A stretch of DNA of 64,000 bases, taken from IMG/VR virus record IMGVR_UViG_3300006175_000011, positions 3,017 to 67,016 of that record; one strand, given 5' to 3'. Both the position numbers and the translations under genes were made by a program. Shown here in pieces: positions 9,713-25,769 of the stretch (positions within the stretch are counted from its first letter, which is position 1; each line of letters begins with the position of its first letter). Under the pieces are notes generated by a model. It was not told where the DNA came from. It worked only from the letters and a program-made list of their open reading frames with translations, and did no database searches. Origin of the DNA: a virus.

Positions 9713-9768
9713 TTGCGTTATGGCTCCTCGTGTCGTATTGTCATAACATCGCAATTACGCGATGGAGG
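9713..9768 (+). promoter_or_regulatory. Early promoter + GCAATTACGC hairpin + SD
   Basis: TTGCGT-17-TATTGT, CATCGC-AATTAC-GCGATG, GGAGG. Confidence 0.75.
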
Positions 9769-9773
9769 AATAT

Positions 9774-9986
9774 ATGGCTACCGTAATCAATACGCCCGAC
9801 GGTATCAAGCGATACCAGGCGTTATGCGCGAAGCAAGGGCTCAAAGCCATCAAGCTCGGCCTGCGCATCAACACCGCCTACACCCCGAAGAACTGTCGCT
9901 TGATGGCTGAGAAGCTGACGGGCAAGAAGTTCAAGGCGCGGGACTACGACGGCATGATTGCCGCGCTCGAGGAGTTCATCGCATGA
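9774..9986 (+). CDS. Hypothetical protein
   Basis: GGAGG SD before ATG 9774 (later than the track start). Confidence 0.7.
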   Translation: MATVINTPDGIKRYQALCAKQGLKAIKLGLRINTAYTPKNCRLMAEKLTGKKFKARDYDGMIAALEEFIA

Positions 9987-10693
9987 ACGACAACATCGAA
10001 GATATCAAGCGCAAGATTACAGCGCTGTTGGCGAAGGCCAATAACACGGCTGCGACCGAAGCGGAAGCCGAAGCTTTCAACAAGAAAGCTCATGAGCTTA
10101 TGGCCAAGTACAATGTGGCTCGAGCCGACCTCGACGCGAAGGCGCCGGCCGAACGAGTTCATCTCGAATTGACTGTGCAGCTCCGACCTTGGTCGCAGTA
10201 TGTCTTGGGAGGCATCACCAAGCTTTATTACTGCACCTACTTCAGCCAAAAGCTGGATCACAAGGGGCGACAACACAAGATTACCATCGTCGGCGAGAAG
10301 CAGAACGCCGCGGTCTGTCATGCTATCATGGTCATGGTCTTGCGTTCAATCCAACAAGCGGCTCGCGCTGCCGGCGATGGTCGCTCGTTTATGACCGGGG
10401 CGGGGATGACGGTCGCAGCTCGATGCGCTGAGATGTATTCGGCAACTCACACCACCCTGACCAGCGGTGTCGGCGCCGAGCCTCATCGTCTCGAGCACAA
10501 TCGAGAAGCCAACGCTCTTGTCTCCCTGGCCGCGGGTGAACGCGAAGGAAATACGGAATACATCCAGAAGACACTCGGCATCAATCTCGGGGTTCGTCGG
10601 TCGAGAGGCGCACAGGTCAATGATGCAAGCGGCTTTAGCCGGGGCGTTGCTCACGGCAAGACTGTTCAACTACGTAGGAACTTGCTAGCATAA
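9983..10693 (+). CDS. DUF2786-domain protein
   Basis: KITALLAKA...EAEAEAFNKKAHELMAKY. Confidence 0.75.
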   Translation: MNDNIEDIKRKITALLAKANNTAATEAEAEAFNKKAHELMAKYNVARADLDAKAPAERVHLELTVQLRPWSQYVLGGITKLYYCTYFSQKLDHKGRQHKITIVGEKQNAAVCHAIMVMVLRSIQQAARAAGDGRSFMTGAGMTVAARCAEMYSATHTTLTSGVGAEPHRLEHNREANALVSLAAGEREGNTEYIQKTLGINLGVRRSRGAQVNDASGFSRGVAHGKTVQLRRNLLA

Positions 10694-10708
10694 GCAAGAA
10701 ATGATGAG

Positions 10709-10767
10709 TTGCGTTAAGGCGTTATTCGTCGTAACGTAACTTCATCGCAATTACGCGATAATAGGAG
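10709..10767 (+). promoter_or_regulatory. Early promoter + GCAATTACGC hairpin + SD
   Basis: TTGCGT-17-TAACGT, ATCGC-AATTAC-GCGAT, AGGAG. Confidence 0.75.
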
Positions 10768-10774
10768 TTATGAA

Positions 10775-10966
10775 ATGAGTATTCAGTCACTCGATGATCT
10801 TCCCGCCTCGGATTACAAGAAAGCTGAGAAATCTATCAAGGCTTTCCGATCAGGCAAGATCGATGCTGATTGTCTCTACGACGACCTCAGCAACCTCGGC
10901 TTGAACTCGGAATATGTAAGCGAGTTCGTTCAGCTCGAGGAACAAATCGAAGCGGGGGAGATCTGA
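10775..10966 (+). CDS. Hypothetical acidic protein
   Basis: AGGAG SD, own promoter. Confidence 0.65.
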   Translation: MSIQSLDDLPASDYKKAEKSIKAFRSGKIDADCLYDDLSNLGLNSEYVSEFVQLEEQIEAGEI

Positions 10967-10967
10967 C

Positions 10968-11306
10968 ATGGCGGGCTCATTAACCTGGCCGATTGACGAA
11001 GCTTTCAAGGCGATGACCGCACAGGCGGTTGCCAACAAGGCTCCAGTCAAGTTCGTCAAGGATCAAGGTGTCTACCTGATGGCTTTCGGAAAGAAGCCCA
11101 AGGAGAACAAGATCATCTATGCCAAGGGTTTCGATCCCAACAAGGTGGCTTTCGATGACTGGTATGACAAGGCGCATAGCGTCTGTGGCGGGGACGACTT
11201 CGCCGAGGACATACCGACGGCCTTCCTTGAGAAGCTCATCGCCAAGGGCTCGAAAGGTTTCCGTATCAAGCTCACCTCGAGGAACATGACTATGGAGGAA
11301 GTGTGA
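10968..11306 (+). CDS. DUF3085-like protein
   Basis: VKDQGVYLM..YAKGFDP..GGDDFAE. Confidence 0.75.
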   Translation: MAGSLTWPIDEAFKAMTAQAVANKAPVKFVKDQGVYLMAFGKKPKENKIIYAKGFDPNKVAFDDWYDKAHSVCGGDDFAEDIPTAFLEKLIAKGSKGFRIKLTSRNMTMEEV

Positions 11307-11584
11307 TGATCGGCCGGGAGATATTCGCCGCGGCAAAGGAGAACCTCGAGAGCAAGTCGGATCGTCAGGTTCGTCTCGATTTCTTAGCCGCTCGACGGTG
11401 GTTCGGGTGGGGCGATCTTGGTAAGAATTATGACGAACCGACCCGGGCGGGTCAGGTCGAAGCAATTCTCGGCGCAGACCCTGTAGTTGTTGAAGGCGGA
11501 GCTTTTGACTTCTGGGCATCTCGGGGGATCATATCCAAGCGCCGACTCAAGGCTTGGCGCAACAGCGATGAGGGGTTCTACTGA
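11303..11584 (+). CDS. Hypothetical protein
   Basis: GGAGG SD, coupled overlap. Confidence 0.55.
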   Translation: MMIGREIFAAAKENLESKSDRQVRLDFLAARRWFGWGDLGKNYDEPTRAGQVEAILGADPVVVEGGAFDFWASRGIISKRRLKAWRNSDEGFY

Positions 11585-12135
11585 TGAGCTACGTTTTCTA
11601 CATCACGGGACAGCGACCGAAGGACGAACACCGCCGGGCCTATGTGCCGGTCATCAAGGACAGCCACAACAGGTATGCTCGATGGTTCCTGTCTTACTTC
11701 CTCAGGGGTCAGGAATATATCCGTCAAGGCAATACTTTGATCTTGACCAATGGCGACCGTCTGCGATGCGACCGACTCGATGAGCTACTGCCGTTGATCC
11801 CGGAGCCAGACTTTCATCACCTGAAGCCTGAGGATCATCAGCGTATCTTATCCTTCAAACATGGCATATGGGAAGAACAATCGACACCCAAGACCATAGA
11901 CACCATCACTGGTCCCGAGCTGGCAACCGTGATCGATCAAACGACCGCCCGGGTGACACGAGCGACACGTCCCGACGGTTATGTCACGATTACCGACCTG
12001 TGCGTCGCCTCAGGAGTCCTGCCGAGCGATGCGCGAGCGATCCTACGAACGTCAGGACGAGAAAAACCGCCGTACGGCTGGGCGTTTGCACCAGAGGAGA
12101 TACCGATCATTAAGAAATTGGTGGGCATCAGGTAG
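11584..12135 (+). CDS. Two-domain protein with C-terminal HTH-like domain; paralogue of 32188-32940
   Basis: YVTITDLC..SGVLPSDARAILR..KPPYGWAF. Confidence 0.7.
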   Translation: MSYVFYITGQRPKDEHRRAYVPVIKDSHNRYARWFLSYFLRGQEYIRQGNTLILTNGDRLRCDRLDELLPLIPEPDFHHLKPEDHQRILSFKHGIWEEQSTPKTIDTITGPELATVIDQTTARVTRATRPDGYVTITDLCVASGVLPSDARAILRTSGREKPPYGWAFAPEEIPIIKKLVGIR

Positions 12136-12191
12136 TTGATTGCGGAACCTGTATCGTTCATAATTCACGCAATCGCAATCACGCGATGGAG
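12136..12191 (+). promoter_or_regulatory. Early promoter + GCAATCACGC hairpin + SD
   Basis: TTGATT-17-CATAAT, ATCGC-AATCAC-GCGAT, GGAG. Confidence 0.7.
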
Positions 12192-12197
12192 AACATA

Positions 12198-12485
12198 ATG
12201 TCAAGGCCCATGTTATCTTTGAAGGCTCCCATCACTCGATGGAGAGTAGAGACCGCACAGATGGTGCGGATGCCTCAGGAAGTCGAGGCGTTGTCGCTCG
12301 AGGTATTACGCGAGCAACTACAATGCTATGCGGATACGTATCGAACGCGACCAGGCTTCCCGCCGCTCGGCTTGCTCACGTTTCGCTACGAGACCGATAA
12401 TCGTCTTCGCGTGAAGGTTGTTCACGCATACTTCACGGGTCGGGACAGGAAGCTCAAGCGCTTCGCTCGTCTGCGGAGGACGTGA
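12198..12485 (+). CDS. Hypothetical protein
   Basis: GGAG SD before ATG 12198. Confidence 0.6.
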   Translation: MSRPMLSLKAPITRWRVETAQMVRMPQEVEALSLEVLREQLQCYADTYRTRPGFPPLGLLTFRYETDNRLRVKVVHAYFTGRDRKLKRFARLRRT

Positions 12486-12775
12486 TCGTGGAAAGGTATG
12501 AAGACATCGAGGAATACCGAGGGTATGTCCTCATGGTTGATCGTCTTCGTGAAGATCATCCCTGGTTCGAGGTATGGTTCTCGGACGGCACTACGGTCAT
12601 CCCGGAAATCAGTCGCTTCTGCTTCAACTGGACTCAGGCACGGTTCAATTGGTTGATCGACCACGCATTCCCATCAGCACCCGTGGTTCACTCACCCCTC
12701 GGCGATATCCATGTACCTTGGTCCAATCGAACGATTGACCTTGCGAGGGGAGCATCCGATGCCGAGACCTCGTAA
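12482..12775 (+). CDS. Hypothetical protein
   Basis: GGAGG SD, GTGA coupling. Confidence 0.6.
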   Translation: MIVERYEDIEEYRGYVLMVDRLREDHPWFEVWFSDGTTVIPEISRFCFNWTQARFNWLIDHAFPSAPVVHSPLGDIHVPWSNRTIDLARGASDAETS

Positions 12776-13037
12776 GGTTGTCACGACTAAGATTGATGCG
12801 GTAGAGCTGCATAGCTCGGCGATCCAACGGGCCATAAAGCTGCATAGTCCGTTCGAGATAGTTGCCGGTGATCTTGTAGGTCGTGATCCTGATGTTTACT
12901 GCGTAGTTTATACTGCGCCGCTCGGGGGTGATCGCAAAGTCATGGCCGAGCGGACTGTGCGAGCTAATGCAAAGACCCTACGAGACATGCTTAGCGAAGC
13001 ATGGGCGGAGGGCATGTGGTCTTCGGGCAGAACATAA
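12711..13037 (+). CDS. Hypothetical protein (true start probably at MPRPRK)
   Basis: GGGAG SD before the internal ATG. Confidence 0.55.
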   Translation: MYLGPIERLTLRGEHPMPRPRKVVTTKIDAVELHSSAIQRAIKLHSPFEIVAGDLVGRDPDVYCVVYTAPLGGDRKVMAERTVRANAKTLRDMLSEAWAEGMWSSGRT

Positions 13038-13040
13038 CAG

Positions 13041-13106
13041 TTGACGTGTAGACGCCATCGTCGCATTATGTATGTGTCCATGCAATGACGCATGACATAA
13101 ACGGAG
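13041..13106 (+). promoter_or_regulatory. Early promoter + GCAATGACGC hairpin + SD
   Basis: TTGACG-17-CATTAT, CATGC-AATGAC-GCATG, GGAG. Confidence 0.75.
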
Positions 13107-13107
13107 A

Positions 13108-13407
13108 ATGTCCATGAACGTCCGTGAATACTTTCAGATGAGGATGTCGCCTGTCTGCGGCGGTGCTATCATCTTTCTCGACAAAGTCCACCCGAACAAT
13201 GATCCCAAGGATCATACCACATTCGGTGAGATCCTCGCAACAATGCCTGCCGACTCGCCCTGCGGCACGGAATGCATCAGCGCTATCGACAACGCGGCTG
13301 CCGTATGTCAGGATATCCGTAACGCGTTCGGTGATGACAAGACTCGCTTGTTCGAGAACGTCGTCTACGCCAACCTTCGCACGCTCTCGTGCTTCATCTG
13401 TGGATAA
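13108..13407 (+). CDS. Hypothetical Cys-rich protein
   Basis: ORF downstream of a promoter and SD. Confidence 0.6.
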   Translation: MSMNVREYFQMRMSPVCGGAIIFLDKVHPNNDPKDHTTFGEILATMPADSPCGTECISAIDNAAAVCQDIRNAFGDDKTRLFENVVYANLRTLSCFICG

Positions 13408-13419
13408 GGAGAAATACTG

Positions 13420-13938
13420 ATGTCCGACAAGTCGTATGTTCTGTCCGAAGAGCTTCGAGCCGAGCTCATGTCAATCCTCGAAGATGTCTATGAAGGCTAT
13501 CAAGGCGTATCGGGTCCACCCATCCCAATTGAAACCTTGATGGGCATCTTCAGAGAACCCATCACCCTCGACGTTCCCATCATTCCGTGGCTGTCGCCGC
13601 CTTTCACCGATGAAGATCGTAGCCGCATGATCCAAGACGTCATGAGCGAGATTCAAGATACTCTCAAGGGGGTTGCCGAGCATATGCTCGACGGCTATGA
13701 GTTCTTGGAGCTCGTCGGCTATGCTTCGCCTTACGATGTCGATGAGCTTGTCCGCATGCTTCAGCATCTCGACAATACTGAAGAATTGTACGTCACAGGT
13801 GAGTTCTTACGCGAGTCTGGAGAAGATGAAGATGACCTGCCCGGTCAGCTCGATTTCGCCAAGCGTATGGGCCTCATCAACGAAGAAGAGACTGAGCTCA
13901 CGGAGCTTGGCAAGGAATTTGTCAAGGAACGCATATAG
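13420..13938 (+). CDS. Hypothetical very acidic protein, possible C-terminal wHTH wing
   Basis: AAGGAG SD; MGLINEEETELTELGKEFV. Confidence 0.6.
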   Translation: MSDKSYVLSEELRAELMSILEDVYEGYQGVSGPPIPIETLMGIFREPITLDVPIIPWLSPPFTDEDRSRMIQDVMSEIQDTLKGVAEHMLDGYEFLELVGYASPYDVDELVRMLQHLDNTEELYVTGEFLRESGEDEDDLPGQLDFAKRMGLINEEETELTELGKEFVKERI

Positions 13939-13948
13939 CATGTTGAAG

Positions 13949-14002
13949 TTGACATGAGCAGCTTAACGCGCGATTGTATGTGATCGCAATAACGCGATGG
14001 AG
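13949..14002 (+). promoter_or_regulatory. Early promoter + GCAATAACGC hairpin + SD
   Basis: TTGACA-17-GATTGT, ATCGC-AATAAC-GCGAT, GGAG. Confidence 0.75.
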
Positions 14003-14009
14003 ACTTGAA

Positions 14010-14147
14010 ATGCGTTCGTTCAGCTATGTCCTCTTGATGGTCCTTTCCTTCGTCGTCTTCGGCGCGCTCCTTGAGGTTGTCGCCACGACGGTTCAGGCCT
14101 CGATTGATCGTTCCGCGGCGATCATCGATAACTCGACTTCGCGGTAA
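14010..14147 (+). CDS. 45-aa membrane peptide (not in ORF track)
   Basis: MRSFSYVLLMVLSFVVFGALLEVVATTVQASIDRSAAIIDNSTSR, directly after promoter and SD. Confidence 0.65.
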   Translation: MRSFSYVLLMVLSFVVFGALLEVVATTVQASIDRSAAIIDNSTSR

Positions 14148-14157
14148 GGAGTAACCC

Positions 14158-14397
14158 ATGAGTCATATCAGCCACGAGGTAGCGTCGGCTATCTCGAATA
14201 AGTTTTTCTCGGAACATACGCCGGTGACCTCACAACCCGCACAGGATCGGGTGAAGTTGGTCTACGATGGCGTGACTTATTATGCGGTCGTTCTCACCGA
14301 AGAGGAAATGCTCAAGACTCGAGACGCCCTCAATCATGCGGAAGAAGATGATTTTCACGGAGCGTTGGACATCTTGATCGAGCGTTTCGCGGTTTAA
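14158..14397 (+). CDS. Hypothetical protein
   Basis: AAGGAG SD. Confidence 0.65.
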   Translation: MSHISHEVASAISNKFFSEHTPVTSQPAQDRVKLVYDGVTYYAVVLTEEEMLKTRDALNHAEEDDFHGALDILIERFAV

Positions 14398-14402
14398 ACC
14401 AG

Positions 14403-14470
14403 TTGCGCTTCAGCGTCCGTTGTCGTAACGTGTAATTGTCGATATGCAATGACGCATTGCGACAACGGAG
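14403..14470 (+). promoter_or_regulatory. Early promoter + extended GCAATGACGC hairpin + SD
   Basis: TTGCGC-17-TAACGT, TTGTCG.ATGC-AATGAC-GCAT.CGACAA, GGAG. Confidence 0.75.
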
Positions 14471-14475
14471 TTTGA

Positions 14476-14748: not shown

Positions 14749-14749
14749 C

Positions 14750-16559: not shown

Positions 16560-16739
16560 TCACGGCACTAATTGCCAGATCTTATGCTCGAAGTCGTGCT
16601 TACCTCTCTTGAAGTATGCTTCCGCAGATGGTAAGTCTTTCTCAATATAATCCTGCGCGGATTTAAGGGTTGTGGTTATGCAGCGCACTTCGGGCATAAT
16701 TTCCTTGCTGCTCTCAATGGTTACCATATACTTCATCAT
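16560..16739 (-). CDS. Hypothetical protein
   Basis: AGGAG SD, coupled to the upstream minus gene. Confidence 0.45.
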   Translation of the reverse strand: MMKYMVTIESSKEIMPEVRCITTTLKSAQDYIEKDLPSAEAYFKRGKHDFEHKIWQLVP

Positions 16740-17284
16740 TAGTCTTCTCCTGTTTCTGGTAGCGACCATACGCTGTCGCCTGCGGGTACTCGATCTTTAA
16801 CTACGCCAAGAGCTTTTGCAGCTGTGCGGAGTTGCTTACGGCTGTACCCGCCGCTATTCGCTGCCTTTTGGATATCTTCCCAATTCATAGGTCCGTGGGA
16901 TAATAAGTTTCTTATGTGGACTTCGCATTCACGGTACTGATAAGATTGTATCTCGATCTCTTCAAGTAGTTCTGTGGAGTTAGGTATCCGGGCGAGTGCA
17001 TCGCGGACATATGCTGCGTGAGCTCGTGCAGGTGAACCTCTGCGGCCTTTGATCCCAATCATCATATGCTTGATAGCTGTACGGAGGATTAGGTTCCACC
17101 ATGGCCATTGTGGAGGTTGCTTGATCCACCTATCCCATGTCCTACGGTCTATTGCCAAGATACGGCAGGTTGCGCTGATATTGCCATTTGTGGCTTCATA
17201 TAACAGATCTGTCAGAGCCTCGAACTCCTTGAGATCTAGCGTTGGAAGATCTGCGAATTGATTATATCTTTTCTTGACTTTCAT
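16739..17284 (-). CDS. Double HTH/wHTH DNA-binding protein, candidate origin-binding protein
   Basis: GNISATCRILAIDRRTWDRW HTH; C-terminus resembles the wHTH tail of the primase-helicase. Confidence 0.6.
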   Translation of the reverse strand: MKVKKRYNQFADLPTLDLKEFEALTDLLYEATNGNISATCRILAIDRRTWDRWIKQPPQWPWWNLILRTAIKHMMIGIKGRRGSPARAHAAYVRDALARIPNSTELLEEIEIQSYQYRECEVHIRNLLSHGPMNWEDIQKAANSGGYSRKQLRTAAKALGVVKDRVPAGDSVWSLPETGED

Positions 17285-17379
17285 GGTTACGGCCTTGTTT
17301 AACGTAATGGGTTGGTGCTTACAAACACAAGTATACCTTTTTTTCGCCTTAATGTCAAACCACTGTGCTCTTATGCTCA

Positions 17380-17750
17380 AATACGGGTTGGTTGGTCTTG
17401 TATTTGGGTAAAGATTAGCATAAATGGCATACTGGCGTAATGGATTTACATATATGTAAAAAAAGAGAGAGTTGTTTTGTATTCGCGCGAACCTTTTGGC
17501 CCACGTGATTTATTGTCAATGGATATGAGTCTGTATAATAGTCTTATGGGACCAGCTGGACCAGCCGAGAGACGGGCCAAATATAGACCACGTAATTACG
17601 TGTCTCTGTTAGAGACCGCGTAGAACGGGTAGCAGCTTGGCCAACATCTTGTCTATGCAGACAGCTAACTAAGTGGCACTAAGATGCGTGTCACTGGAAG
17701 ATACAGATAGCTATTGAGTCTGGCCAAGCCAGAATACTCGATGGAAATAA
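17380..17750. other. AT-rich, palindrome-rich noncoding region; candidate origin or genome-end region
   Basis: TTTACATATATGTAAA, TTCGCGCGAA and CACGTAATTACGTG palindromes; no ORF. Confidence 0.4.
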
Positions 17751-17754: not shown

Positions 17755-17809
17755 TTGATCTCTGGATATTTATGTTCGATTGTGTATTATCGCAATGACG
17801 CGATGGGAG
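17755..17809 (+). promoter_or_regulatory. Early promoter + GCAATGACGC hairpin + SD
   Basis: TTGATC-17-GATTGT, ATCGC-AATGAC-GCGAT, GGGAG. Confidence 0.75.
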
Positions 17810-17816: not shown

Positions 17817-18020
17817 ATGATTATCAAAACCACATTGGTCATCGGCTGCGATGCGACGGACCCGTCTGCCAATGACGTGACATTGGATCTACGCGAGCTG
17901 CTCGTGACAAAGCTCCAATCGATTGGTCGTTGCGAATTGGTCGGGATGATCGATGACGGCTTGATTGTCGAATTGGATCTCGACGTAGCCGATCCGTCCG
18001 TATATCGCGTGGCCGATTGA
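17817..18020 (+). CDS. Hypothetical acidic protein, monocistronic
   Basis: Own promoter, SD and downstream hairpin. Confidence 0.65.
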   Translation: MIIKTTLVIGCDATDPSANDVTLDLRELLVTKLQSIGRCELVGMIDDGLIVELDLDVADPSVYRVAD

Positions 18021-18233
18021 TAATGATGCGGGTCTCACGGCCCGTTTCATTTGGGCAACGATTGGCTTGGCCAAGCTTAGTGTTAGAGACCGTATGGTAC
18101 GGGTAGCGCATCTGTGGGAATAAGGCGGATTGGCCAATCTCACTATCTCTGGTTGGGCCAGCCATGTACACATGGAGCTTATGATGCGTGCATACGCGTG
18201 CATTTAATGCATGTACGATTGCATTATTTGCAA

Positions 18234-18293
18234 TCGACAACATGCGATTGCGTTCGTATATTGATGACATCGAAACGCAATGACGCGTTCGAT
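18234..18293 (+). promoter_or_regulatory. Island promoter + GCAATGACGC hairpin
   Basis: TCGACA-17-TATATT, ATCGAA.CGC-AATGAC-GCG.TTCGAT. Confidence 0.65.
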
Positions 18294-18314
18294 ATGATGA
18301 AAGTGAAACACGCA

Positions 18315-18623
18315 ATGTCACGCAACAACAAAACGATTGCATTTCCGTGCGTTTTGAAAACGATCATTTCGCACACGCATCGCGACGACAAAACGTTCGC
18401 ACGCAACGACAAACAAATTCGCGCGACATTGCGCGCAAAATCGATCAACGATCACATTCGCAACACGTCGTGGATCGCAACGAATATGCGTGAATATGAC
18501 GCGATACGTCGCGCATACGATGCGCGTTACGATGCGTCGTTCGCACGCGCAAAGCGTGTCACGAAATCGCGTGTCGCGCCGAACGTCGTCGTTGTCGACG
18601 ACAATGCGAACGTTGACGCGTAA
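18315..18623 (+). CDS. 102-aa basic Gly-free protein, divergent member of the HTH-like paralogue family
   Basis: MSRNNKTIAF...NDKQIRATLRAKSINDHIRNTSW; ATG after promoter and GAAAGTG. Confidence 0.65.
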   Translation: MSRNNKTIAFPCVLKTIISHTHRDDKTFARNDKQIRATLRAKSINDHIRNTSWIATNMREYDAIRRAYDARYDASFARAKRVTKSRVAPNVVVVDDNANVDA

Positions 18624-18685
18624 CGCAATCGCATGGCGTTGAACGCGAATACGCGCAACGCTACACGTTGAAAGGATAACACGCG

Positions 18686-18763
18686 ATGACACGCATTGAC
18701 GTATATGCGTTAACAATGATCGTTTGCGTAACGTTGATCGTTGTAACGTATTTGTCGCATTGA
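18686..18763 (+). CDS. 25-aa single-TM peptide (not in ORF track)
   Basis: AAAGGA SD; MTRIDVYALTMIVCVTLIVVTYLSH. Confidence 0.55.
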   Translation: MTRIDVYALTMIVCVTLIVVTYLSH

Positions 18764-18889
18764 ACGCACGCGACACGCATATGACCGCCCGCATGCAAAA
18801 ACCGGGCCATATGCGTACAGCACGCACCTGGTCCCCATCTATATTTCTAAGGTTTTAAGACTTAACGTAATTACGTGTCGAGGTAAATC

Positions 18890-20871: not shown

Positions 20872-21374
20872 GCAACAAGATGAAAACCTAGGTCAAATCC
20901 ACCACAGCGCCTTGGAACTGTGTCGTCTGGTGCTGCTGTGTACGATCAACCGACGGGTAGGTCGTGAGTGGTGGCTGAAAATGACTCACGCCCACGAATA
21001 CATCGGCAAAGCACTGGAGAAGATACAGCCATGAATAAAGTTCACTTTCGCTATCCCATCTTCTGGACTGCTTGTAACCTGGCGGCTCGACGCAGGGCAC
21101 TCGGTTCAAAGATTAGGGTCACCAGCAACAAGGCGCTAGTCACCTGTGGTAGCTGCAGGAATACTCAAGGGTTCTTCACTATGGATGACAAGCCCGACGA
21201 CGTTGTGACCGACAAGACACCATCACTTCGGAAGGACGGGTAGGTTGAAGGGGTTATTGGCCACGCCGATCCCGCTTTGGCAACTAGCGCTGATCCTTGC
21301 GATCTACGTTATCTACAAAGAGGTCGTGAAGCTTCTGTGGAAGCTAAGCATCAAGGCGATCAAAGGAAAGATCA

Positions 21375-21590
21375 ATGGAAGAGAAAGCTTACAACAGCCT
21401 GAGTACGAAAGTCAGGAACGCCCTGCACCGCAACAGAGCCAAGAGCTTCCCGCCGCTGACCGGGTTTCACAGCCCGCTGGTTGACACGAAGCCTTGGGAG
21501 TTGCCGATCAGGGATCTGCTCAAGATCAAGGGTATTGGGCCGGCGGCGATTAAGGAAATTGCTCAAGTAGCGGAGAAACTCTGTGTCTGA
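21375..21590 (+). CDS. RNA polymerase alpha-CTD-like helix-hairpin-helix protein
   Basis: LSTKVRNALHR...DLLKIKGIGPAAIKEI matches the alpha-CTD LSxRxxNxL..LLKxxNLGxKSxxEI pattern. Confidence 0.65.
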   Translation: MEEKAYNSLSTKVRNALHRNRAKSFPPLTGFHSPLVDTKPWELPIRDLLKIKGIGPAAIKEIAQVAEKLCV

Positions 21591-22476
21591 TATGGAAAAG
21601 GTTTATTGGCGCTTTGCAAATGAGCGCCTGCGCATGTATCACCGTCGGCTCAAGGGTAAGGAGTCACTGACGAAGGATTCCATTCTTCGGGATCATCGGT
21701 TCACCAACGCCTATCGCGCCAGCGACCGCGTCAGTCAATACCTGATCCGTGAAGTTCAATACGGCGAAGAAGAACGCAAGAAAGAACTGTTCTTCCGGAC
21801 ATTGCTCTTTAAGATCTTCAATAAGATCGAGACCTGGCAAATGATCCAAGGCCATTTCGACGAACCTATCACTAGTCATGACCTTAAACATATTCGCAAG
21901 CTTCTGGTGAAACACGGGGGCAAAGGCCTTTACTCCGCAGCGTACATCCAGGCAAGTCCGGCCGGCAAGGGTGTCAGTAAAGCTATCGCACACATTGATC
22001 TATTGACAGCTCTCATGGATTTACCTCTTTGGAAGAACGTCCGCGATGCCCGATCACTCGAGGAAGTTTTTCTTCACATGAGGTCTATCCGTAGTTTCGG
22101 TGATTTCCTTGCCTACCAATATACTATCGACTTGAATTACTCTACGATGATCGACTTCGACGAGAACGACTTCGTAGTTCCTGGGCCCGGAGCACTGGAC
22201 GGTATCAGCAAGATTATGCCCGGCACGCATCCCGTGAAGGCGATACGCCATATGACCAAGCGTGCCCGCGATGAGATGGGTGATACCCTCTTCGGTAGAC
22301 AGCTTCACCTGATCGATTGTCAGAATCTCTTCTGTGAGATCAGCAAATACACCCGCGTTAGTCATCCGACGATCCAGGGCGTATCAGGTAGGACCACGAT
22401 CAAACAGAACTATACGCCACACTCAGAGCCTTTGCCTCGACCATTCTTTCCGCCGAAGTGGAACCTCGAGTATTGA
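21583..22476 (+). CDS. aGPT-Pplase1 / 5-hmdU DNA kinase helical-domain family DNA base hypermodification protein
   Basis: FANER..DSILRDHRFTNAYRASDRVSQYLI, FKIFN..ETW, GDFLAYQY.IDLNYS, GPGA..G, DCQNLFCEISKY.R. Confidence 0.85.
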   Translation: MSDMEKVYWRFANERLRMYHRRLKGKESLTKDSILRDHRFTNAYRASDRVSQYLIREVQYGEEERKKELFFRTLLFKIFNKIETWQMIQGHFDEPITSHDLKHIRKLLVKHGGKGLYSAAYIQASPAGKGVSKAIAHIDLLTALMDLPLWKNVRDARSLEEVFLHMRSIRSFGDFLAYQYTIDLNYSTMIDFDENDFVVPGPGALDGISKIMPGTHPVKAIRHMTKRARDEMGDTLFGRQLHLIDCQNLFCEISKYTRVSHPTIQGVSGRTTIKQNYTPHSEPLPRPFFPPKWNLEY

Positions 22477-22531
22477 CCGGTTGACGCCGGTGACCAGTCA
22501 ACACACAATGACATAGTGAAAGGAGACTAAG

Positions 22532-22780
22532 ATGTCCAGCAGTAATCAAGACATCCTCGATGCACTCGAGTCCATTGCTCGTGAGGCACCAGTGAGTTTA
22601 CTCGAACAACGAGGTATGATGGCCTGCGCTCACATATCCGCGGCAATCAGCCTCAAACGCATCGCCGATAAGCTCGAGGAAGGACTCCCCGTCAGCGTTC
22701 CTCAAGAGACCTATCTCAAGGTCATCGACCTGGCTTATGAAGCCGGTCAATCATTTACTCGCGGAAGGAATGCAGGATGA
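22532..22780 (+). CDS. Hypothetical protein
   Basis: TTGACG promoter and AAGGAG SD; AISLKRIAD. Confidence 0.6.
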   Translation: MSSSNQDILDALESIAREAPVSLLEQRGMMACAHISAAISLKRIADKLEEGLPVSVPQETYLKVIDLAYEAGQSFTRGRNAG

Positions 22781-22974
22781 GCCGTACCAAGATTAGCACG
22801 TTGACGAGGCAACCGCTCTACCTTCGGCAGCCCACCGAGGCGGAACAAAAAGAGATTAATCCACAGGGATCGGCAACCTTCCTTCTGGTTGATGGATCTA
22901 ACAAGGCGGTTGCTATGATCGAGATCGATGACCTGTTCGACGAGAACGGTAATCGTTTCGAGGACGATACGTGA
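22777..22974 (+). CDS. Hypothetical protein
   Basis: ATGA coupling. Confidence 0.5.
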   Translation: MSRTKISTLTRQPLYLRQPTEAEQKEINPQGSATFLLVDGSNKAVAMIEIDDLFDENGNRFEDDT

Positions 22975-23042
22975 GATTTAACCGGTTGACGTAGACTCCC
23001 ATCATTGCGATAACAGTGATGTCATCAACGAGGAGATAATCA

Positions 23043-23201
23043 ATGCCGAAGACCACCCTGAAGCTCGACCGCGACACCAAGGGCACGTTCGTTTTCAAGA
23101 ACGACGCCGAGGACGCGCCGATCCCATCGCTCTACATCAAGAAGCATGCCTTTCCCGGCGATGCGCCGAAGTCGATCACCGTCGAGTTCAAGGCTGCCTG
23201 A
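23043..23201 (+). CDS. 52-aa small beta-rich protein (not in ORF track)
   Basis: TTGACG-17-GATAAC promoter, AGGAG SD; MPKTTLKLDRDTKGTFVF...SLYIKK. Confidence 0.7.
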   Translation: MPKTTLKLDRDTKGTFVFKNDAEDAPIPSLYIKKHAFPGDAPKSITVEFKAA

Positions 23202-23482
23202 TGCCTGTCTACCGCCCGAAGCTCGTTTCCCAGAAGGCGGTCGTGGAGTACCGGTCCTCGTCGGATCGGTACTTCATTTGCTATCCCGATCTCAAGATGG
23301 AGTTGGTGATGGCGTTCAAGAGTAAGCAGACTGCTGCCGAGATAGCGATCAACGCTGAAGCCGGCACTCCCTTCTTTACGATGATCCCGACTGTGGATTA
23401 TGACACGCCCTATCCCCGGCCGGATTATGAATATCCGCCGGTGCGCAATCCCGCGGTGTTTCCGCTGGTATTGAAGGATTGA
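23201..23482 (+). CDS. Hypothetical protein
   Basis: TGATG coupling. Confidence 0.5.
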   Translation: MPVYRPKLVSQKAVVEYRSSSDRYFICYPDLKMELVMAFKSKQTAAEIAINAEAGTPFFTMIPTVDYDTPYPRPDYEYPPVRNPAVFPLVLKD

Positions 23483-23533
23483 CATTTTAACGTGATTGCG
23501 TTAATGTCTCATAGTCGCATTTCGCGACTGGAG
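23479..23533 (+). promoter_or_regulatory. Promoter + variant hairpin + SD
   Basis: TTGACA-17-TAATGT, AGTCGC-ATTTC-GCGACT, GGAG. Confidence 0.65.
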
Positions 23534-23541
23534 ATAATCGT

Positions 23542-23844
23542 ATGTCCATGACAGTGCGAGTTCAGGCACGAGCCTGGGGCGCTATCGTGACCGTCGCCAA
23601 GACGACTCAGGGCGAGGAAGGTCACATCACCGAAGACCACGAGGAACACGTTCTCGGCGCAAACGAGGATCGAGTCTTCCACGTCGAGCCCGGTTATTCG
23701 GTGACCGCCGTTCACGGCAAGGAACCCACCGCCGAAGAGGAAACTGCCGAAACCGTTTCGGCCGAGGATCCCGCGGCATCCGGCAAACGCAAGGGCTTCA
23801 AATCGCCCGCCGACAATGAGTCGGCTACCGACACGCAGATCTAA
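23542..23844 (+). CDS. Hypothetical acidic protein
   Basis: Own promoter and SD. Confidence 0.65.
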   Translation: MSMTVRVQARAWGAIVTVAKTTQGEEGHITEDHEEHVLGANEDRVFHVEPGYSVTAVHGKEPTAEEETAETVSAEDPAASGKRKGFKSPADNESATDTQI

Positions 23845-23852
23845 CCTCGAAC

Positions 23853-23876
23853 GAGGGGTCGTTTCGACGGCCCCTC
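23853..23876 (+). terminator. Stable hairpin with UUCG loop
   Basis: GAGGGGTCGT-TTCG-ACGGCCCCTC; no U-tract. Confidence 0.4.
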
Positions 23877-23883
23877 ACAGGAG

Positions 23884-24270
23884 ATGACAATGGCCAAGAA
23901 CGGCATCCCGAAGACCGCCATAACTGAGAAAACCCTGAGGAAGCACATTCGGGGAGCCGCGAAGTCTCACTCTTCCGTTAGTGCATGGGCTGTGGAAAAC
24001 GGACTCACAGCACAGCAAGTCACGGCTTTTCTGCGTAAGACGCAAGGTGCTGGACTCAAATTGCCCGAACTACTCGGGTATCGGCCTCAGTTAATCTTCA
24101 TCCCATTGAATGAGGACCTGATCTGCACCCTTCCACCGCCGCGCGTAAAAGCTACCAAAAGGCCCACGAAAAAGGTCGATCATAGCCTTGAACCTGTTGT
24201 AAAGAAGGGCAACAAGCCTAAGGACGACCGTAAAGACACCAAAAAGCGATTGAAAAAGAGGAAGAAATAA
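23884..24270 (+). CDS. HTH-like DNA-binding protein with Lys-rich tail
   Basis: SVSAWAVENGLTAQQVTAFL. Confidence 0.55.
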   Translation: MTMAKNGIPKTAITEKTLRKHIRGAAKSHSSVSAWAVENGLTAQQVTAFLRKTQGAGLKLPELLGYRPQLIFIPLNEDLICTLPPPRVKATKRPTKKVDHSLEPVVKKGNKPKDDRKDTKKRLKKRKK

Positions 24271-24617
24271 TGCCCCTGCTTTTCTACGGGGTTTTGCCCA
24301 ATAAGCGTAAACGAAGGCTATACAGCAAGAATTTACGCGAGATCGAGACCTCTTTGTTCGATCATTTCAAGATCAAAGACCTTGCGCCTTACAGTCGACT
24401 GCATCATGTGGCCAATTTCTGGCACCTGATCTCGCTCGACACCACGGCGATTGCTTGGCACACCGACGACGGTGAGAAAGAGCAAGTCATATTCATTCCC
24501 GGTATTCATAACCAGATTGACTCGTTAGCTATCGCTCGACTTGAGTTTGGATCGGTTATGCCCGGCGCCACGACATTCCGGTTCAACAACAAGGTCTATG
24601 TCCATGAGTATACTTAA
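24270..24617 (+). CDS. Hypothetical protein
   Basis: Coupled ORF. Confidence 0.5.
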   Translation: MPLLFYGVLPNKRKRRLYSKNLREIETSLFDHFKIKDLAPYSRLHHVANFWHLISLDTTAIAWHTDDGEKEQVIFIPGIHNQIDSLAIARLEFGSVMPGATTFRFNNKVYVHEYT

Positions 24618-24816
24618 TGGGATGGTGAACGTAGTTCTACCACCGGAGGCGGTTGACTTTCTCATTCGTAACTGCGATGACAGCATCAAGCAAGGTCAAC
24701 GTCTGCTGATGCCTTTAGCTGATGTCGAATTGACGCCGCCTCAAAGGGACGACATTCGGAGCATGATGACCAAGTTTGAGATCATCAAGGCCGCGGCGGA
24801 AAGGTCATTACGATGA
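24604..24816 (+). CDS. Hypothetical protein
   Basis: Fills the gap to the ligase, ATGA coupling. Confidence 0.45.
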   Translation: MSILNGMVNVVLPPEAVDFLIRNCDDSIKQGQRLLMPLADVELTPPQRDDIRSMMTKFEIIKAAAERSLR

Positions 24817-25712
24817 TAAAGCGCCCGATGAAGGGACCTCAGGCTACGGACCTGACAATCATCAAGTTTCCTGTGATCGCTTTTCCCAAGATTGACGGAT
24901 TCCGCTGCATCCTCGGCACAGAGCCGATGACGAGCCGTTTATCTCCTTTTCCTAACAAGCACTTCATGAAGGAAGCGTCCGGCCTTTTGGACTGCGGTGC
25001 CTTACTCGATGGCGAAATCGTCTGTGGCAGTAAAAAGAAGAAAGGCGTCCTCGGGCGCACGAGCAGCGGACTGACGACCCGAGAAGGCGAGCCCGATTGG
25101 ACTCTATGGGTATTTGATGCACCGAGCGTCGGCTTCTTTCGTGTTCGTTTCCTCGAGGCTACTCAAATTGTCAAGGATCTTGACCATCCCCGAATAAAGA
25201 TCCTAAAGGGTCGGATCATTGAAAACTTGCCATCCTTGAACCGGTTCATTGAGGAATGTCTGGCCAAAGGTTATGAGGGTGTAATCACCCGTAATCCGGA
25301 AGGTTTCTACAAACAGGGTAAGTCCACACTCCGTGAACAAGGCATGCTGAAGATTAAACCCTTCGAAGATGCCGAGGGTCGAGTTACAGGTTACTTCGAA
25401 GAGGAGAAGAACAACAATGAAGCAAAAAGGGAAATCACCGGCAAGCTCAAGCGATCAAGCGCCAAAGCGGGTAAAGTCGGAAAAGGACGTCTCGGAGGAC
25501 TCATACTCGAGGATGTTAAATCAGGCGTTGAGGTCCGGGTGGGAGGCGGCTTCACCCAACAGGAACGGATCAACCTCTGGCCAATTCGTAAAAGCCTCCT
25601 CGGCAAACTTGTCAAATACAAGAAGCAGCAAGTCGGAGAAAAGGATAAGCCGCGCCATCCGGGCTTTCGCGAATTTATTGGGTGGCGACCGGATTGGGAT
25701 CTGGCAGAATAA
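24813..25712 (+). CDS. lig: ATP-dependent DNA ligase
   Basis: PKIDGFR (motif I), LDGEI, VFD, GYEGVI.R, LKIKP, OB-fold GGGF. Confidence 0.92.
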   Translation: MIKRPMKGPQATDLTIIKFPVIAFPKIDGFRCILGTEPMTSRLSPFPNKHFMKEASGLLDCGALLDGEIVCGSKKKKGVLGRTSSGLTTREGEPDWTLWVFDAPSVGFFRVRFLEATQIVKDLDHPRIKILKGRIIENLPSLNRFIEECLAKGYEGVITRNPEGFYKQGKSTLREQGMLKIKPFEDAEGRVTGYFEEEKNNNEAKREITGKLKRSSAKAGKVGKGRLGGLILEDVKSGVEVRVGGGFTQQERINLWPIRKSLLGKLVKYKKQQVGEKDKPRHPGFREFIGWRPDWDLAE

Positions 25713-25717
25713 ACCAG

Positions 25718-25769
25718 TTGATGGACAGTTATCCGTATGCGATAATGTTGACGCAACGACGCAACGGAG
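25718..25769 (+). promoter_or_regulatory. Promoter + degenerate GCAACGACGC motif + SD
   Basis: TTGATG-17-GATAAT, GC-AACGAC-GC, GGAG. Confidence 0.65.

What the first reader, a model, noticed from the sequence alone, without database searches (positions are those of the whole stretch)
9731..25766. The CY/RG avoidance recurs as short patches over the -10 to +25 region of early promoters
Seen: stretches such as 9731-9764, 12151-12188, 13963-13999, 14419-14467, 17765-17805 and 25735-25766 contain no CC/CT/GG/AG up to the SD, while flanking coding DNA uses them freely. The patches extend upstream of the shared hairpin, into sequence that is otherwise dissimilar between copies. Inference: this independently supports the idea that modified CY sites obstruct open-complex formation or initial transcription, and it ties the large island to transcription.
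Basis: partly seen in the sequence, partly recalled or inferred. Interest (0 to 1): 0.72.

Follow-up and report, generated by a model that had tools for sequence, protein, structure and literature searches.

The report
Dinucleotide-purged early promoter cores in a phage
In this phage and its close relatives, the part of each early promoter that RNA polymerase encloses, plus one whole small gene, is written without the base steps CC, CT, GG and AG, which points to something acting on those steps in the DNA that is incompatible with starting transcription.

Summary
All six listed stretches lie inside maximal CC/CT/GG/AG-free runs. They belong to 8 stereotyped sigma70-type promoter plus 5'-hairpin leader cassettes.

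The free zone starts sharply 8 nt upstream of the -10 hexamer and ends at the SD. It survives the proposed refutation:
- With the -10 and hairpin masked, 3 of 143 dinucleotides are CY/RG, against 25.2±3.6 in composition-matched shuffles.
- With position-specific composition kept, 2 of 144 against 18.6±2.9.

The 600-bp island is a real gene for a conserved, glycine-free ~100-aa protein, together with its own promoter.

Zone and island densities move together across five related phage genomes, and both are relaxed to ~0.09 in one clade. The same hairpin cassette occurs unpurged in more distant phages. This indicates a lineage-specific, strand-symmetric, DNA-level cause.

The 5-hmdU DNA kinase is not that cause: a complete purged relative lacks it. 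A cytosine-specific thymidylate-synthase-like module suggests neighbour-dependent cytosine modification instead. The agent and the transcription mechanism remain inferred.

The parts
9713..9769 (+). Early promoter/leader cassette 1. -35 TTGCGT 9713-9718; -10 TATTGT 9736-9741; CY/RG-free run 9728-9764; hairpin ATCGC-AATTAC-GCGAT 9748-9763; SD GGAGG 9765-9769; start ATG 9774.
10709..10767 (+). Cassette 2. -35 TTGCGT 10709-10714; -10 TAACGT 10732-10737; zone 10724-10762 with one CT at 10740-10741; the same hairpin; SD AGGAG from 10763.
12136..12191 (+). Cassette 3. -35 TTGATT 12136-12141; -10 CATAAT 12159-12164; free run 12150-12188; hairpin with loop AATCAC; SD GGAG 12188-12191.
13041..13106 (+). 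Cassette 4. -35 TTGACG 13041-13046; -10 CATTAT 13064-13069; zone 13056-13102 with one CC at 13078-13079; compensated hairpin CATGC-AATGAC-GCATG; SD GGAG from 13103.
13949..14002 (+). Cassette 5. -35 TTGACA 13949-13954; -10 GATTGT 13972-13977; free run 13963-13999; hairpin with loop AATAAC; SD GGAG from 13999.
14403..14470 (+). Cassette 6. -35 TTGCGC 14403-14408; -10 TAACGT 14426-14431; free run 14418-14467; compensated hairpin ATGC-AATGAC-GCAT; SD GGAG from 14467.
17755..17809 (+). Cassette 7. -35 TTGATC 17755-17760; -10 GATTGT 17778-17783; free run 17765-17805; hairpin with loop AATGAC; SD GGGAG from 17805; gene 17817-18020.
25718..25769 (+). Cassette 8. -35 TTGATG 25718-25723; -10 GATAAT 25741-25746; free run 25734-25766; variant leader GACGCAACGACGCAAC; SD GGAG from 25766.
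18179..18785 (+). The large CY/RG-free island: 9 such dinucleotides in 607 bp at normal base composition. It holds its own fully purged promoter (TCGACA-17-TATATT, 18234-18262), an extended version of the same hairpin around 18268-18292, gene 18315-18623, and a 25-codon hydrophobic ORF 18686-18763 with SD AAGGA at 18673.
18315..18623 (+). Island gene: a 102-aa basic protein (P0039). The family is conserved and glycine-free, with one invariant Pro and one invariant Trp. The only CY/RG steps inside the gene are two CCG (Pro), one TGG (Trp) and one AAG.
8693..8724 (+). CY/RG-free run downstream of a further sigma70-like promoter (TTGACA-17-TAACGT from 8670), upstream of gene 8743-9489. It does not carry the canonical hairpin.
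23477..23508 (+). CY/RG-free run over the spacer and -10 of promoter TTGACA-17-TAATGT. It is followed by CTC and then a different hairpin, GTCGC-ATTTC-GCGAC, and SD GGAG.
27194..27314 (.). Two CY/RG-free runs (27194-27234 and 27260-27314) flanking G+C-rich terminator-like hairpins at the end of the early block. Equivalent runs exist in two complete relatives, including the relaxed one.
21583..22476 (+). 5-hmdU DNA kinase homologue (PF18723, E 8e-79). Among the five related genomes compared it is present only in this one, so it is not the cause of the purge.
2958..3827 (-). Thymidylate-synthase-like enzyme with Asp at Cys+31, the pyrimidine-specificity position. Predicted to act on dCMP.
3824..4657 (-). 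Second thymidylate-synthase-fold protein, 277 aa, with 935 homologues. Its best structural match is a phage dCMP hydroxylase.

Best explanation
**What it is (shown).** The patches are the cores of a family of stereotyped early promoter/leader cassettes. Each has an AG-TTGNNN -35, a 17-nt spacer, a TANNNT-type -10, a 5-bp hairpin with loop AAT-N-AC placed where transcription should start, then GGAG. From 8 nt upstream of the -10 hexamer to the SD, about 35-50 bp, these cassettes avoid the steps 5'-CY-3' and 5'-RG-3' on both strands. The avoidance goes beyond what their motifs and base composition require. The same four-dinucleotide ban shapes one complete small transcription unit, the island. 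The ban is an overlay specific to one phage lineage, and it weakens in promoters and island together.

**How it most likely works (inferred).** These phages replace cytosine with a 5-substituted cytosine made before replication. A further, neighbour-dependent step then treats C followed by a pyrimidine differently from C followed by a purine, so CY/RG steps carry (or lack) a bulky major-groove group in virion DNA. Unmodified host sigma70 RNA polymerase must load and melt the -20 to +20 segment of the incoming DNA. That segment, and the whole of one gene needed from such DNA, is therefore kept free of those steps. Elsewhere they are harmless.

The thymine-hypermodification kinase of this genome is not the agent.
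For: **The avoidance is real and goes beyond motif and composition.**
- All four dinucleotides are depleted in the non-motif segments of 31 promoters from four genomes: AG 2 against 20.1 expected, CC 8 against 25.2, CT 1 against 36.9, GG 1 against 17.1. The other twelve dinucleotides have O/E 0.64-2.05.
- The column-permutation control gives 9 of 558 against 72.9±5.4.
- Of 93 deviations from the consensus that would create a CY/RG step, only 14 do so, because the neighbouring base changed as well.

**It acts on DNA, not only on RNA.** The untranscribed 8 nt upstream of -10 give the strongest signal.

**The island follows the same rule.**
- It has 9 such steps in 607 bp at 49% G+C.
- It is a real gene with 35 homologues.
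- In this genome the gene keeps only the two unavoidable Pro codons, the one Trp codon and one AAG.

**Promoters and island share a cause.**
- Zone and island densities co-vary across five genomes.
- In the relaxed genome the zone has 13 of 144, against 12 of 1154 in the constrained group (Fisher p 4e-7).
- In the relaxed genome the island gene has 33 exceptions, mostly at synonymous and codon-junction positions, while the protein is still glycine-free.

**It is an overlay, not a property of the cassette.** 18 distinct cassettes with the identical hairpin in other phage contigs carry 38 of 287 in non-motif segments, against 12 of 537 in the constrained group (p 1e-9).

**It is local.** Long genes show no synonymous avoidance.

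**Cytosine chemistry is plausible.**
- The thymidylate-synthase-like enzyme has Asp at Cys+31 in 5 of 5 genomes.
- A second thymidylate-synthase-fold protein best matches a phage dCMP hydroxylase.
- A dCMP deaminase, a MazG-like pyrophosphatase and a dNMP-kinase-like gene lie next to them.

**Precedent for the effect on transcription.**
- Bulky major-groove groups block bacterial RNA polymerase, probably at initiation (PMC4838386, abstract).
- Caged or phosphorylated hydroxymethyl-pyrimidines switch E. coli RNA polymerase off (PMC6457204, passages).
Against: - No modification was measured. No sequencing run could be listed, so there are no reads to inspect.
- No glycosyltransferase, methyltransferase or other DNA-tailoring enzyme with a plausible CY preference was found among the proteins scanned. 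Many small ORFs were not scanned.
- The relaxed clade keeps the same nucleotide-metabolism genes, so the determinant is unidentified.
- CY/RG steps are conserved at about -21, -26, -37 and -47 of the same promoters. Such steps are therefore tolerated, or even used, within the wider polymerase footprint.
- A strong consensus promoter at 6135-6163 is not purged downstream of its -10.
- Obstruction of initiation alone does not explain a purge across 309 coding bases plus flanks, or the purged runs beside terminators at 27194-27314.
- Transcription start sites are inferred from spacing, not mapped.
- The column-permutation controls can be inflated by promoter sub-families. The control region upstream of the zone also fell below its permutations, though far less (68 of 434 against 96.3±5.5).
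Confidence: 0.4

Rival explanations
1. Protein read-out. CY/RG-free duplex DNA is itself the recognition feature, by shape or flexibility, for a lineage-specific DNA-binding protein. Candidates are the island-encoded basic protein, or the early proteins P0037/P0038. This protein would coat or regulate the promoter cores and its own gene, for example to shut off or time early transcription.
For: - The constraint is at the dinucleotide level rather than a fixed motif.
- The island contains the gene of a small basic protein of unknown fold together with its promoter.
- The purged DNA is enriched in alternating purine-pyrimidine steps and CpG (O/E 2.65).
- P0037 (172 aa, acidic) and P0038 (70 aa) are present in 4 of 4 constrained genomes and absent from the one complete relaxed genome.
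- Purged runs also occur beside terminators.
Against: - No DNA-binding fold was recognised in the island protein.
- The island protein is conserved in the relaxed clade too.
- The phyletic pattern rests on a single independent loss.
- No known protein reads the absence of four dinucleotides.
Confidence: 0.2
2. Protection of exposed single strands. A host or phage enzyme that acts on single-stranded DNA in a CY (or RG) context, such as a deaminase, a base ADP-ribosyltransferase or a nickase, would hit DNA that is open longest. That means long-lived open complexes and a very heavily transcribed gene, and these segments have been purged of its target.
For: - The purge is local, strand-symmetric and centred on the melted promoter region.
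- It is lineage-specific, as expected for a host-dependent pressure.
- It covers a whole transcription unit.
Against: - The zone extends well beyond the roughly 13-nt bubble, on both sides.
- The other early genes are transcribed from the same promoters but are not purged.
- G+C in the island is near normal, so simple mutational erosion is excluded.
- No such enzyme was identified.
Confidence: 0.12
3. RNA-level leader design. The short 5' leader avoids SD-like (AG, GG) and anti-SD-like (CC, CU) sequences, so that the single SD next to the 5' hairpin stays free and unique.
For: - The zone ends exactly at the SD in 8 of 8 cassettes of this genome, even when the leader is long.
- The hairpin is a true pairing element: 93.5% of cells are paired, with 25 double-change cells against 7.8 in shuffles.
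Against: - The strongest depletion lies in the 8 nt upstream of the -10, which is not transcribed.
- The island's purge covers its promoter, about 55 bp upstream of that promoter, and the codon junctions.
- Identical leaders in other phages are not purged.
- The island RNA is no more structured than dinucleotide-preserving shuffles (z +0.91).
Confidence: 0.08
4. By-product. The patches merely reflect the shared hairpin, an A+T-rich -10 and the common descent of duplicated cassettes. There is no independent constraint.
For: - In this genome alone, the -10 hexamer and the hairpin core are explained by their own position-specific composition (0 against 1.2 and 0 against 1.7).
- The cassettes are highly stereotyped.
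- A mild depletion, 38 of 287 against 62.3±5.0, is also seen in unpurged relatives.
Against: - Controls that mask or preserve the motifs still give 3 of 143 against 25.2 and 2 of 144 against 18.6.
- 79 of 93 would-be creating changes are compensated by a change in the neighbouring base.
- The same cassette is unpurged elsewhere.
- The island obeys the same rule without being a cassette.
Confidence: 0.05
5. Thymine hypermodification at CT sites. The 5-hmdU DNA kinase pathway of this genome modifies T preceded by C, and those sites are kept out of the promoters.
For: - A strong kinase homologue lies at 21583-22476.
- Phosphorylated 5-hmU templates support little transcription in vitro (PMC6457204, passages).
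Against: - The kinase is absent from four related genomes, including a complete purged one. tblastn found no hit below E 0.2.
- It cannot explain avoidance of CC/GG.
- Reported contexts for this pathway are TG, then TC (PMC6449724 and PMC13458397, passages), and these steps are abundant in the purged DNA.
- The hydroxymethylase-like enzyme carries the cytosine-type Asp.
Confidence: 0.05

Closest known systems
PeSL (promoter-early stem-loop) cassettes of T4-like phages (PMC4122927, abstract read; PMC2839356, search listing only)
   Same: Small, conserved, repeated regulatory cassettes sit between variable early genes. Each combines a sigma70-type early promoter with a stem-loop.
   Different: PeSLs are described as composite terminator/promoter elements. 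Here the stem-loop lies after the promoter, abuts the SD and has no T-run. No dinucleotide purge is described in the PeSL text I read.
Switching of bacterial RNA polymerase by major-groove pyrimidine modifications in vitro (PMC4838386, abstract; PMC6457204, passages)
   Same: Bulky groups on 5-substituted pyrimidines block transcription, probably at initiation. Plain 5-hmU or 5-hmC is tolerated or even stimulatory. This is the effect the favoured explanation needs.
   Different: Those templates were fully substituted synthetic DNA with a laboratory promoter. Nothing there concerns neighbour-dependent modification or genomes that avoid sites.
Context-dependent thymine hypermodification through 5-hmdU DNA kinase (PMC6449724 and PMC13458397, passages; PMC8989533, passages)
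   Same: It is a post-replicative, partial modification with dinucleotide-level preference in phage DNA, and a kinase homologue is present in this genome.
   Different: The reported preference is T followed by G or C, not C followed by Y. The kinase is missing from purged relatives. The nucleotide enzymes here look cytosine-directed.
T4-type cytosine replacement pathway (dCMP hydroxymethylase with Asp179; PDB 1b5d and 6l18 appear among the matches) and phage dCMP hydroxylase (PDB 9iqu; PMC13326640, passages)
   Same: A thymidylate-synthase-fold enzyme carries Asp at the specificity position, and a dCMP deaminase, a pyrophosphatase and a dNMP-kinase-like gene are its neighbours.
   Different: No DNA glycosyltransferase was found. 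There are two tandem thymidylate-synthase-fold proteins. The chemistry has not been determined. That T2/T6 glucosylation depends on neighbouring bases is my recollection only, and I could not confirm it.
Restriction-site or CRISPR PAM avoidance in phage genomes (recalled knowledge)
   Same: Both involve selective loss of short sequence words. RG on both strands would also remove NGG/NAG-type PAMs.
   Different: Such avoidance only helps if it is genome-wide. Here the rest of the genome uses the words freely.
Vertebrate CpG islands (recalled knowledge; an analogy only)
   Same: In both cases promoter-centred patches have a dinucleotide content that differs from the rest of the genome because of a base modification.
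   Different: The sign is inverted (words are absent rather than retained). The words differ and the scale is about 40 bp. In vertebrates the cause is mutational decay, whereas here it appears to be selection.

Membership tests
sigma70-type bacterial promoter | TTGACA-like -35, spacer of 17±1 nt, TATAAT-like -10 with A2 and T6 | tested here: met
   8 of 8 cassettes of this genome have TTGNNN, a 17-nt spacer and NANNNT. The generic scan found 4 of them: 12136, 13041, 17763 (a different register) and 25718.
sigma70-type bacterial promoter | Mapped transcription start 6-8 nt downstream of the -10 | not testable with these tools
   No sequencing run could be listed. The start is inferred from spacing.
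PeSL-type early promoter/stem-loop cassette | Conserved promoter plus stem-loop repeated between early genes | tested here: met
   The core GCAATNACGC has 10 exact copies against about 0.5 expected, 9 of them on the + strand. 38 cassettes were aligned from five genomes.
PeSL-type early promoter/stem-loop cassette | The stem-loop acts as a terminator placed with the promoter | tested here: not met
   The hairpin lies 3-12 nt after the -10 and is followed by GGAG, not by a T-run.
5'-terminal RNA stem-loop leader | Base pairing maintained by compensatory change | tested here: met
   3 of 5 pairs covary. 25 double-change cells against 7.8±2.1 in shuffles, and 93.5% of cells are paired.
5'-terminal RNA stem-loop leader | The hairpin begins within a few nucleotides of the RNA 5' end | tested here: inconclusive
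   The gap from the -10 to the stem is 5-7 nt in 5 of 8 cassettes, and 3, 9 and 11 nt in the other three. No 5'-end data are available.
Thymidine hypermodification system (5-hmdU DNA kinase pathway) | 5-hmdU DNA kinase present | tested here: met
   PF18723, E 7.9e-79, at 21583-22476.
Thymidine hypermodification system (5-hmdU DNA kinase pathway) | The kinase co-occurs with the purge in relatives | tested here: not met
   0 of 4 related genomes have it, including the complete purged G004.
Thymidine hypermodification system (5-hmdU DNA kinase pathway) | dUMP-specific hydroxymethylase (Asn at the pyrimidine-specificity position) | tested here: not met
   Asp at Cys+31 in 5 of 5 genomes. It aligns with the Asn229 position of L. 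casei thymidylate synthase, and the best hits are variants carrying Asp there. The residue's role is recalled, though it is consistent with the title of PDB 6l18.
T4-like cytosine-replacement module | dCMP-directed thymidylate-synthase-fold enzyme, with deaminase, pyrophosphatase and kinase neighbours | tested here: met
T4-like cytosine-replacement module | DNA glycosyltransferase or another post-replicative tailoring enzyme | tested here: inconclusive
   None was found among the 59 protein queries answered in Pfam or PHROGs. Several ORFs have no match and many small ones were not scanned.
Genome-wide word avoidance (restriction sites or PAMs) | Depletion across the genome, including synonymous sites | tested here: not met
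   The overall frequency is 0.242. CTN makes up 80% of Leu codons and AAG 72% of Lys codons. Codon-junction O/E is 0.72-1.06.

The most novel reading that the evidence does not exclude
This phage lineage carries a so far undescribed neighbour-dependent hypermodification of its substituted cytosines, in which C followed by a pyrimidine is treated differently from C followed by a purine. Its genome has answered with a 'modification-blind' regulatory script. Promoter cores, leaders and one master early gene are written in a 12-dinucleotide alphabet, so that naive host RNA polymerase can read incoming virion DNA. The conserved CY/RG steps at about -21, -26, -37 and -47 would then act as modification-sensitive switches that time the other early promoters.
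Probability: 0.2. Interest if true: 0.9.

Novelty: new variant of a known kind. Interest (0 to 1): 0.75.

Why it matters
If it holds, sequence alone reveals where a DNA modification (or a protein that reads it) must not sit. It would also give the modification's sequence context, C followed by Y, before any chemistry is done.

It offers a natural experiment on how base modification and promoter function constrain each other, because purged, half-relaxed and unpurged versions of the same promoter cassette already exist in related phages. The conserved 277-aa enzyme of this phage group has 935 homologues in public assemblies, so the group is common enough to study.

It also shows that a protein family can be pushed to lose glycine altogether by a constraint on its DNA.

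Practically, such purged cassettes would be candidate promoters that stay active on heavily modified templates.

Tried and rejected

- The look-up of sequencing runs listed no run, and no RNA holder was listed.
- A mistaken family search on a 10-base reference returned an error. A literature query with terms that were too short returned an error.

**Searches for relatives.**
- DNA search of the island against cultured phages found no match.
- Structural genes matched only Brevundimonas phages Strzyga and Polewnik, at 75-78% identity over 10-20% of the query.
- Strzyga (first 50 kb examined) has no island, and its only long run is a single 54-nt one.
- A kinase-based search of IMG/VR found no relative.
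- Cultured phages match the kinase at 41% identity or less.
- A Pfam-family search of five related records rang nowhere, the controls included, so it was uninformative. It was replaced by protein searches.

**Tests on the island.**
- ORF length alone does not show that the island is coding (p 0.11 against Markov simulations). Homologues settled the question.
- The fold of the island protein (AlphaFold2, pLDDT 73.6) gave no Foldseek match at E ≤ 0.001 and a best VIA Z of 4.3. The ESM Atlas gave no usable hit.
- The Atlas search for P0037 returned only weak winged-helix-like leads.
- Island RNA structure beyond composition was rejected (z +0.91).

**Explanations rejected.**
- A genome-wide mutational or codon bias.
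- A general property of non-coding DNA.

**Promoter assignment.**
- The first automatic assignment was too strict and missed TAACGT-type -10 elements. It was replaced, with two automatic rows substituted and three added by hand.
- Hairpin-core matches without a promoter or an SD were left out of the promoter tests. In the window these are 26034, 37719, 61367(-) and 8338(-).
- The three island promoters of the relatives were also left out. The island promoter of this genome never entered the set, because it has no SD match.

**Literature.** Searches for a described purge of this kind and for neighbour-dependent glucosylation in T2/T6 found nothing relevant. Supplementary files were not consulted.

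Full report
**What the window is.**

The window is bases 3017-67016 of a 67,016-bp phage genome. It encodes:
- a family A DNA polymerase with a UDG-like domain, a dCMP deaminase, a thymidylate-synthase-like protein, a primase-helicase, a ligase, a ThyX-like protein and a 5-hmdU DNA kinase homologue;
- a MazG-like pyrophosphatase and a dNMP-kinase-like protein;
- an SNF2 helicase, a PD-(D/E)XK nuclease and an OmpR-type regulator.

The only cultured relatives found are Brevundimonas phages, and they are distant.

**Checking the observation.**

- CC, CT, GG and AG together make up 0.242 of all dinucleotides in the window.
- In 200 first-order Markov simulations of the genome, runs of 37 nt or more averaged 0.62 (maximum 6). 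There are 13, of which 7 lie outside the large island.
- Long genes use the four dinucleotides freely at synonymous sites and codon junctions.
- Intergenic gaps in the late region have densities of 0.30-0.33.
- The patches are therefore local and not a feature of non-coding DNA in general.

**Anatomy of the cassettes.**

- Each patch is the core of a stereotyped cassette: AG-TTGNNN, a 17-nt spacer, a TANNNT-type -10, a gap of 3-12 nt, a 5-bp stem with loop AAT-N-AC, then GGAG and a start codon.
- The core GCAATNACGC has 10 exact copies in the window, where about 0.5 are expected.
- The stem is a true pairing element. In 38 aligned copies, 93.5% of cells pair, three of five pairs covary, and there are 25 double-change cells against 7.8±2.1 in shuffles.
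- Its position suggests that it forms the 5' end of the transcript. This is inferred from spacing, because no RNA data could be obtained.
- The free zone has a sharp upstream edge 8 nt before the -10 hexamer.
- Just upstream of that edge, CY/RG steps are conserved rather than avoided. They occur at about -15/-16, -20, -31 and -41 from the end of the -10, which is roughly -21, -26, -37 and -47 from the inferred start.

**Controls for motif and composition.**

| Control | Set | Observed | Expected |
|---|---|---|---|
| -10 and 16-nt hairpin masked, bases shuffled within the remaining segments | 8 cassettes, this genome | 3 of 143 | 25.2±3.6 |
| Same | 31 cassettes, four related genomes | 12 of 537 | 99.4±7.1 |
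| Columns permuted, keeping position-specific composition | this genome | 2 of 144 | 18.6±2.9 |
| Same | four genomes | 9 of 558 | 72.9±5.4 |
| Same, control stretch over the -35 and early spacer | four genomes | 68 of 434 | 96.3±5.5 |

- All four dinucleotides are depleted (O/E 0.03-0.32). The other twelve lie between 0.64 and 2.05.
- In this genome alone, the -10 hexamer and the hairpin core are explained by their own motifs. The untranscribed 8 nt upstream of the -10 (1 of 64 against 13.1) and the variable gap (1 of 40 against 4.1) are not.
- Of 93 deviations from the consensus that would create a CY/RG step, 79 are accompanied by a change in the neighbouring base that prevents it.

**The island.**

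- Positions 18179-18785 have normal base composition (49% G+C) but only 9 CY/RG steps, with CpG at 2.65 times expectation.
- The island is not a repeat array.
- It contains a real gene, 18315-18623. Its 102-aa product has 35 homologues at 51-84% identity.
- The protein family has no glycine, one invariant proline and one invariant tryptophan.
- Inside the gene the only exceptions are two CCG, one TGG and one AAG.
- The island also holds its own fully purged promoter and an extended copy of the same hairpin.
- The protein's fold matched nothing.
- The island RNA is no more structured than dinucleotide-preserving shuffles.

**Relatives.**

Five IMG/VR contigs carry the island gene. Four records were read whole.

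| Genome | Island minimum density | Promoter-zone density |
|---|---|---|
| G005 | 0.000 | 0.003 |
| G001 | 0.017 | 0.004 |
| this genome (G000) | 0.010 | 0.010 |
| G004 | 0.017 | 0.032 |
| G002 | 0.087 | 0.090 |

- G002 against the rest gives Fisher p 4e-7.
- In G002 the island gene has 33 exceptions, mostly at synonymous and junction positions, while the protein remains glycine-free. The ban is therefore ancestral and was relaxed in that clade, in promoters and island together.
- Short metagenome contigs show the same two states.
- A scan for the exact hairpin plus SD found the cassette in nine further phage contigs with 52-66% G+C. There, 18 distinct cassettes carry 38 of 287 CY/RG steps in non-motif segments, against 12 of 537 in the purged group (p 1e-9).
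- The cassette is thus widespread, and the purge is a lineage-specific overlay on it.

**What is not the cause.**

- The 5-hmdU DNA kinase is present only in this genome. The complete, purged G004 has no homologue.
- The contexts reported for that pathway are TG and TC (PMC6449724 and PMC13458397, passages). Both are abundant in the purged DNA.
- Thymine chemistry cannot explain CC/GG.
- There is no genome-wide bias.
- RNA-level leader design cannot explain the untranscribed part.

**What may be the cause.**

- The thymidylate-synthase-like enzyme has Asp at Cys+31 in all five genomes. This residue aligns with the uracil-specifying Asn of L. casei thymidylate synthase, and the best PDB hits are variants carrying Asp there.
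- A second, highly conserved 277-aa protein with 935 homologues folds as a thymidylate synthase. Its best match is a phage dCMP hydroxylase (PMC13326640, passages).
- Together with the deaminase, the pyrophosphatase and the kinase-like gene, this resembles a cytosine-replacement module.
- A neighbour-dependent tailoring step on such cytosines would give exactly a CY/RG signature. This step is inferred and was not found.
- Published in vitro work shows that bulky major-groove groups stop bacterial RNA polymerase, probably at initiation (PMC4838386, abstract; PMC6457204, passages).
- Two small early proteins, P0037 and P0038, are present in all four purged genomes and absent from the relaxed one. 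This rests on a single independent loss and is only a lead.

**Verdict.**

- The link between patches and island is supported by co-variation.
- The specific claim that modified CY sites obstruct open-complex formation fits the geometry and the precedents, but it remains unproven.
- It does not by itself explain the purge of a whole gene, the purged runs beside terminators, or the conserved CY/RG steps just upstream of the zone.
- I found no description of such a purge in the papers searched.

Noticed in passing
window 18315-18623: The island gene encodes a ~100-aa basic protein family that lacks glycine entirely and has one invariant Pro and one invariant Trp. The protein's composition looks shaped by the ban on four dinucleotides in its DNA. 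No known fold was matched.
   Followed up: partly
window 2958-3827 (-) and 3824-4657 (-): Two tandem thymidylate-synthase-fold proteins. The first has Asp at the pyrimidine-specificity position in all five related genomes. The second (277 aa, 935 homologues at up to 92% identity) best matches a phage dCMP hydroxylase structure. Together they suggest a cytosine modification made before replication.
   Followed up: partly
window 21583-22476: The 5-hmdU DNA kinase homologue is an add-on of this genome only. Four related genomes lack it, which raises the question of what its substrate is in a phage whose hydroxymethylase looks cytosine-directed.
   Followed up: partly
window 27194-27314; G002 17026-17159; G004 9440-9559: Two CY/RG-free runs of 40-55 nt flank G+C-rich terminator-like hairpins at the end of the early gene block. 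They are conserved in both complete relatives, including the otherwise relaxed one.
   Followed up: partly
window 17590-17650 and 18060-18140: Repeated elements flank the small gene 17817-18020. There is a 27-nt repeat (17607 and 18081, 85% identical) and TTGGCCAA-centred palindromes at 17634, 18064 and 18127. Relatives have different palindromes (ATGGTTAAC-type) at the same place, next to a divergent HTH gene (16739-17380, -). They look like operator sites upstream of the island.
   Followed up: no
window 9774-9986 (P0038) and 13420-13938 (P0037): Two early proteins, one of 70 aa and basic and one of 172 aa and very acidic, are present in all four purged genomes and absent from the complete relaxed genome.
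   Followed up: partly
about 15, 20, 31 and 41 nt upstream of the end of the -10 in the cassettes (for example window 9712, 9722-9727): CY/RG steps are conserved at phased positions upstream of the purged zone: AG before the -35, GG/AG in the spacer, CC at the zone edge, and AG about 10 bp upstream of the -35.
   Followed up: partly
window 8318-8349 (-): The hairpin core GCAATTACGC also occurs on the minus strand, in the loop of a 13-bp terminator-like stem just after the primase-helicase gene.
   Followed up: no
whole genome: GATC (7.9 per kb) and TCGA (8.9 per kb) are about twice as frequent as expected from length alone. GANTC is absent from the island.
   Followed up: no
window 18686-18763: A 25-codon hydrophobic ORF with its own SD (AAGGA at 18673) lies inside the downstream part of the island. 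Its conservation was not checked.
   Followed up: no
window 6135-6163: A near-consensus sigma70 promoter (TTGACC-17-TATAAT) sits between the divergent replication genes. It is not purged downstream of its -10, so the purge is specific to the hairpin-class cassettes.
   Followed up: partly
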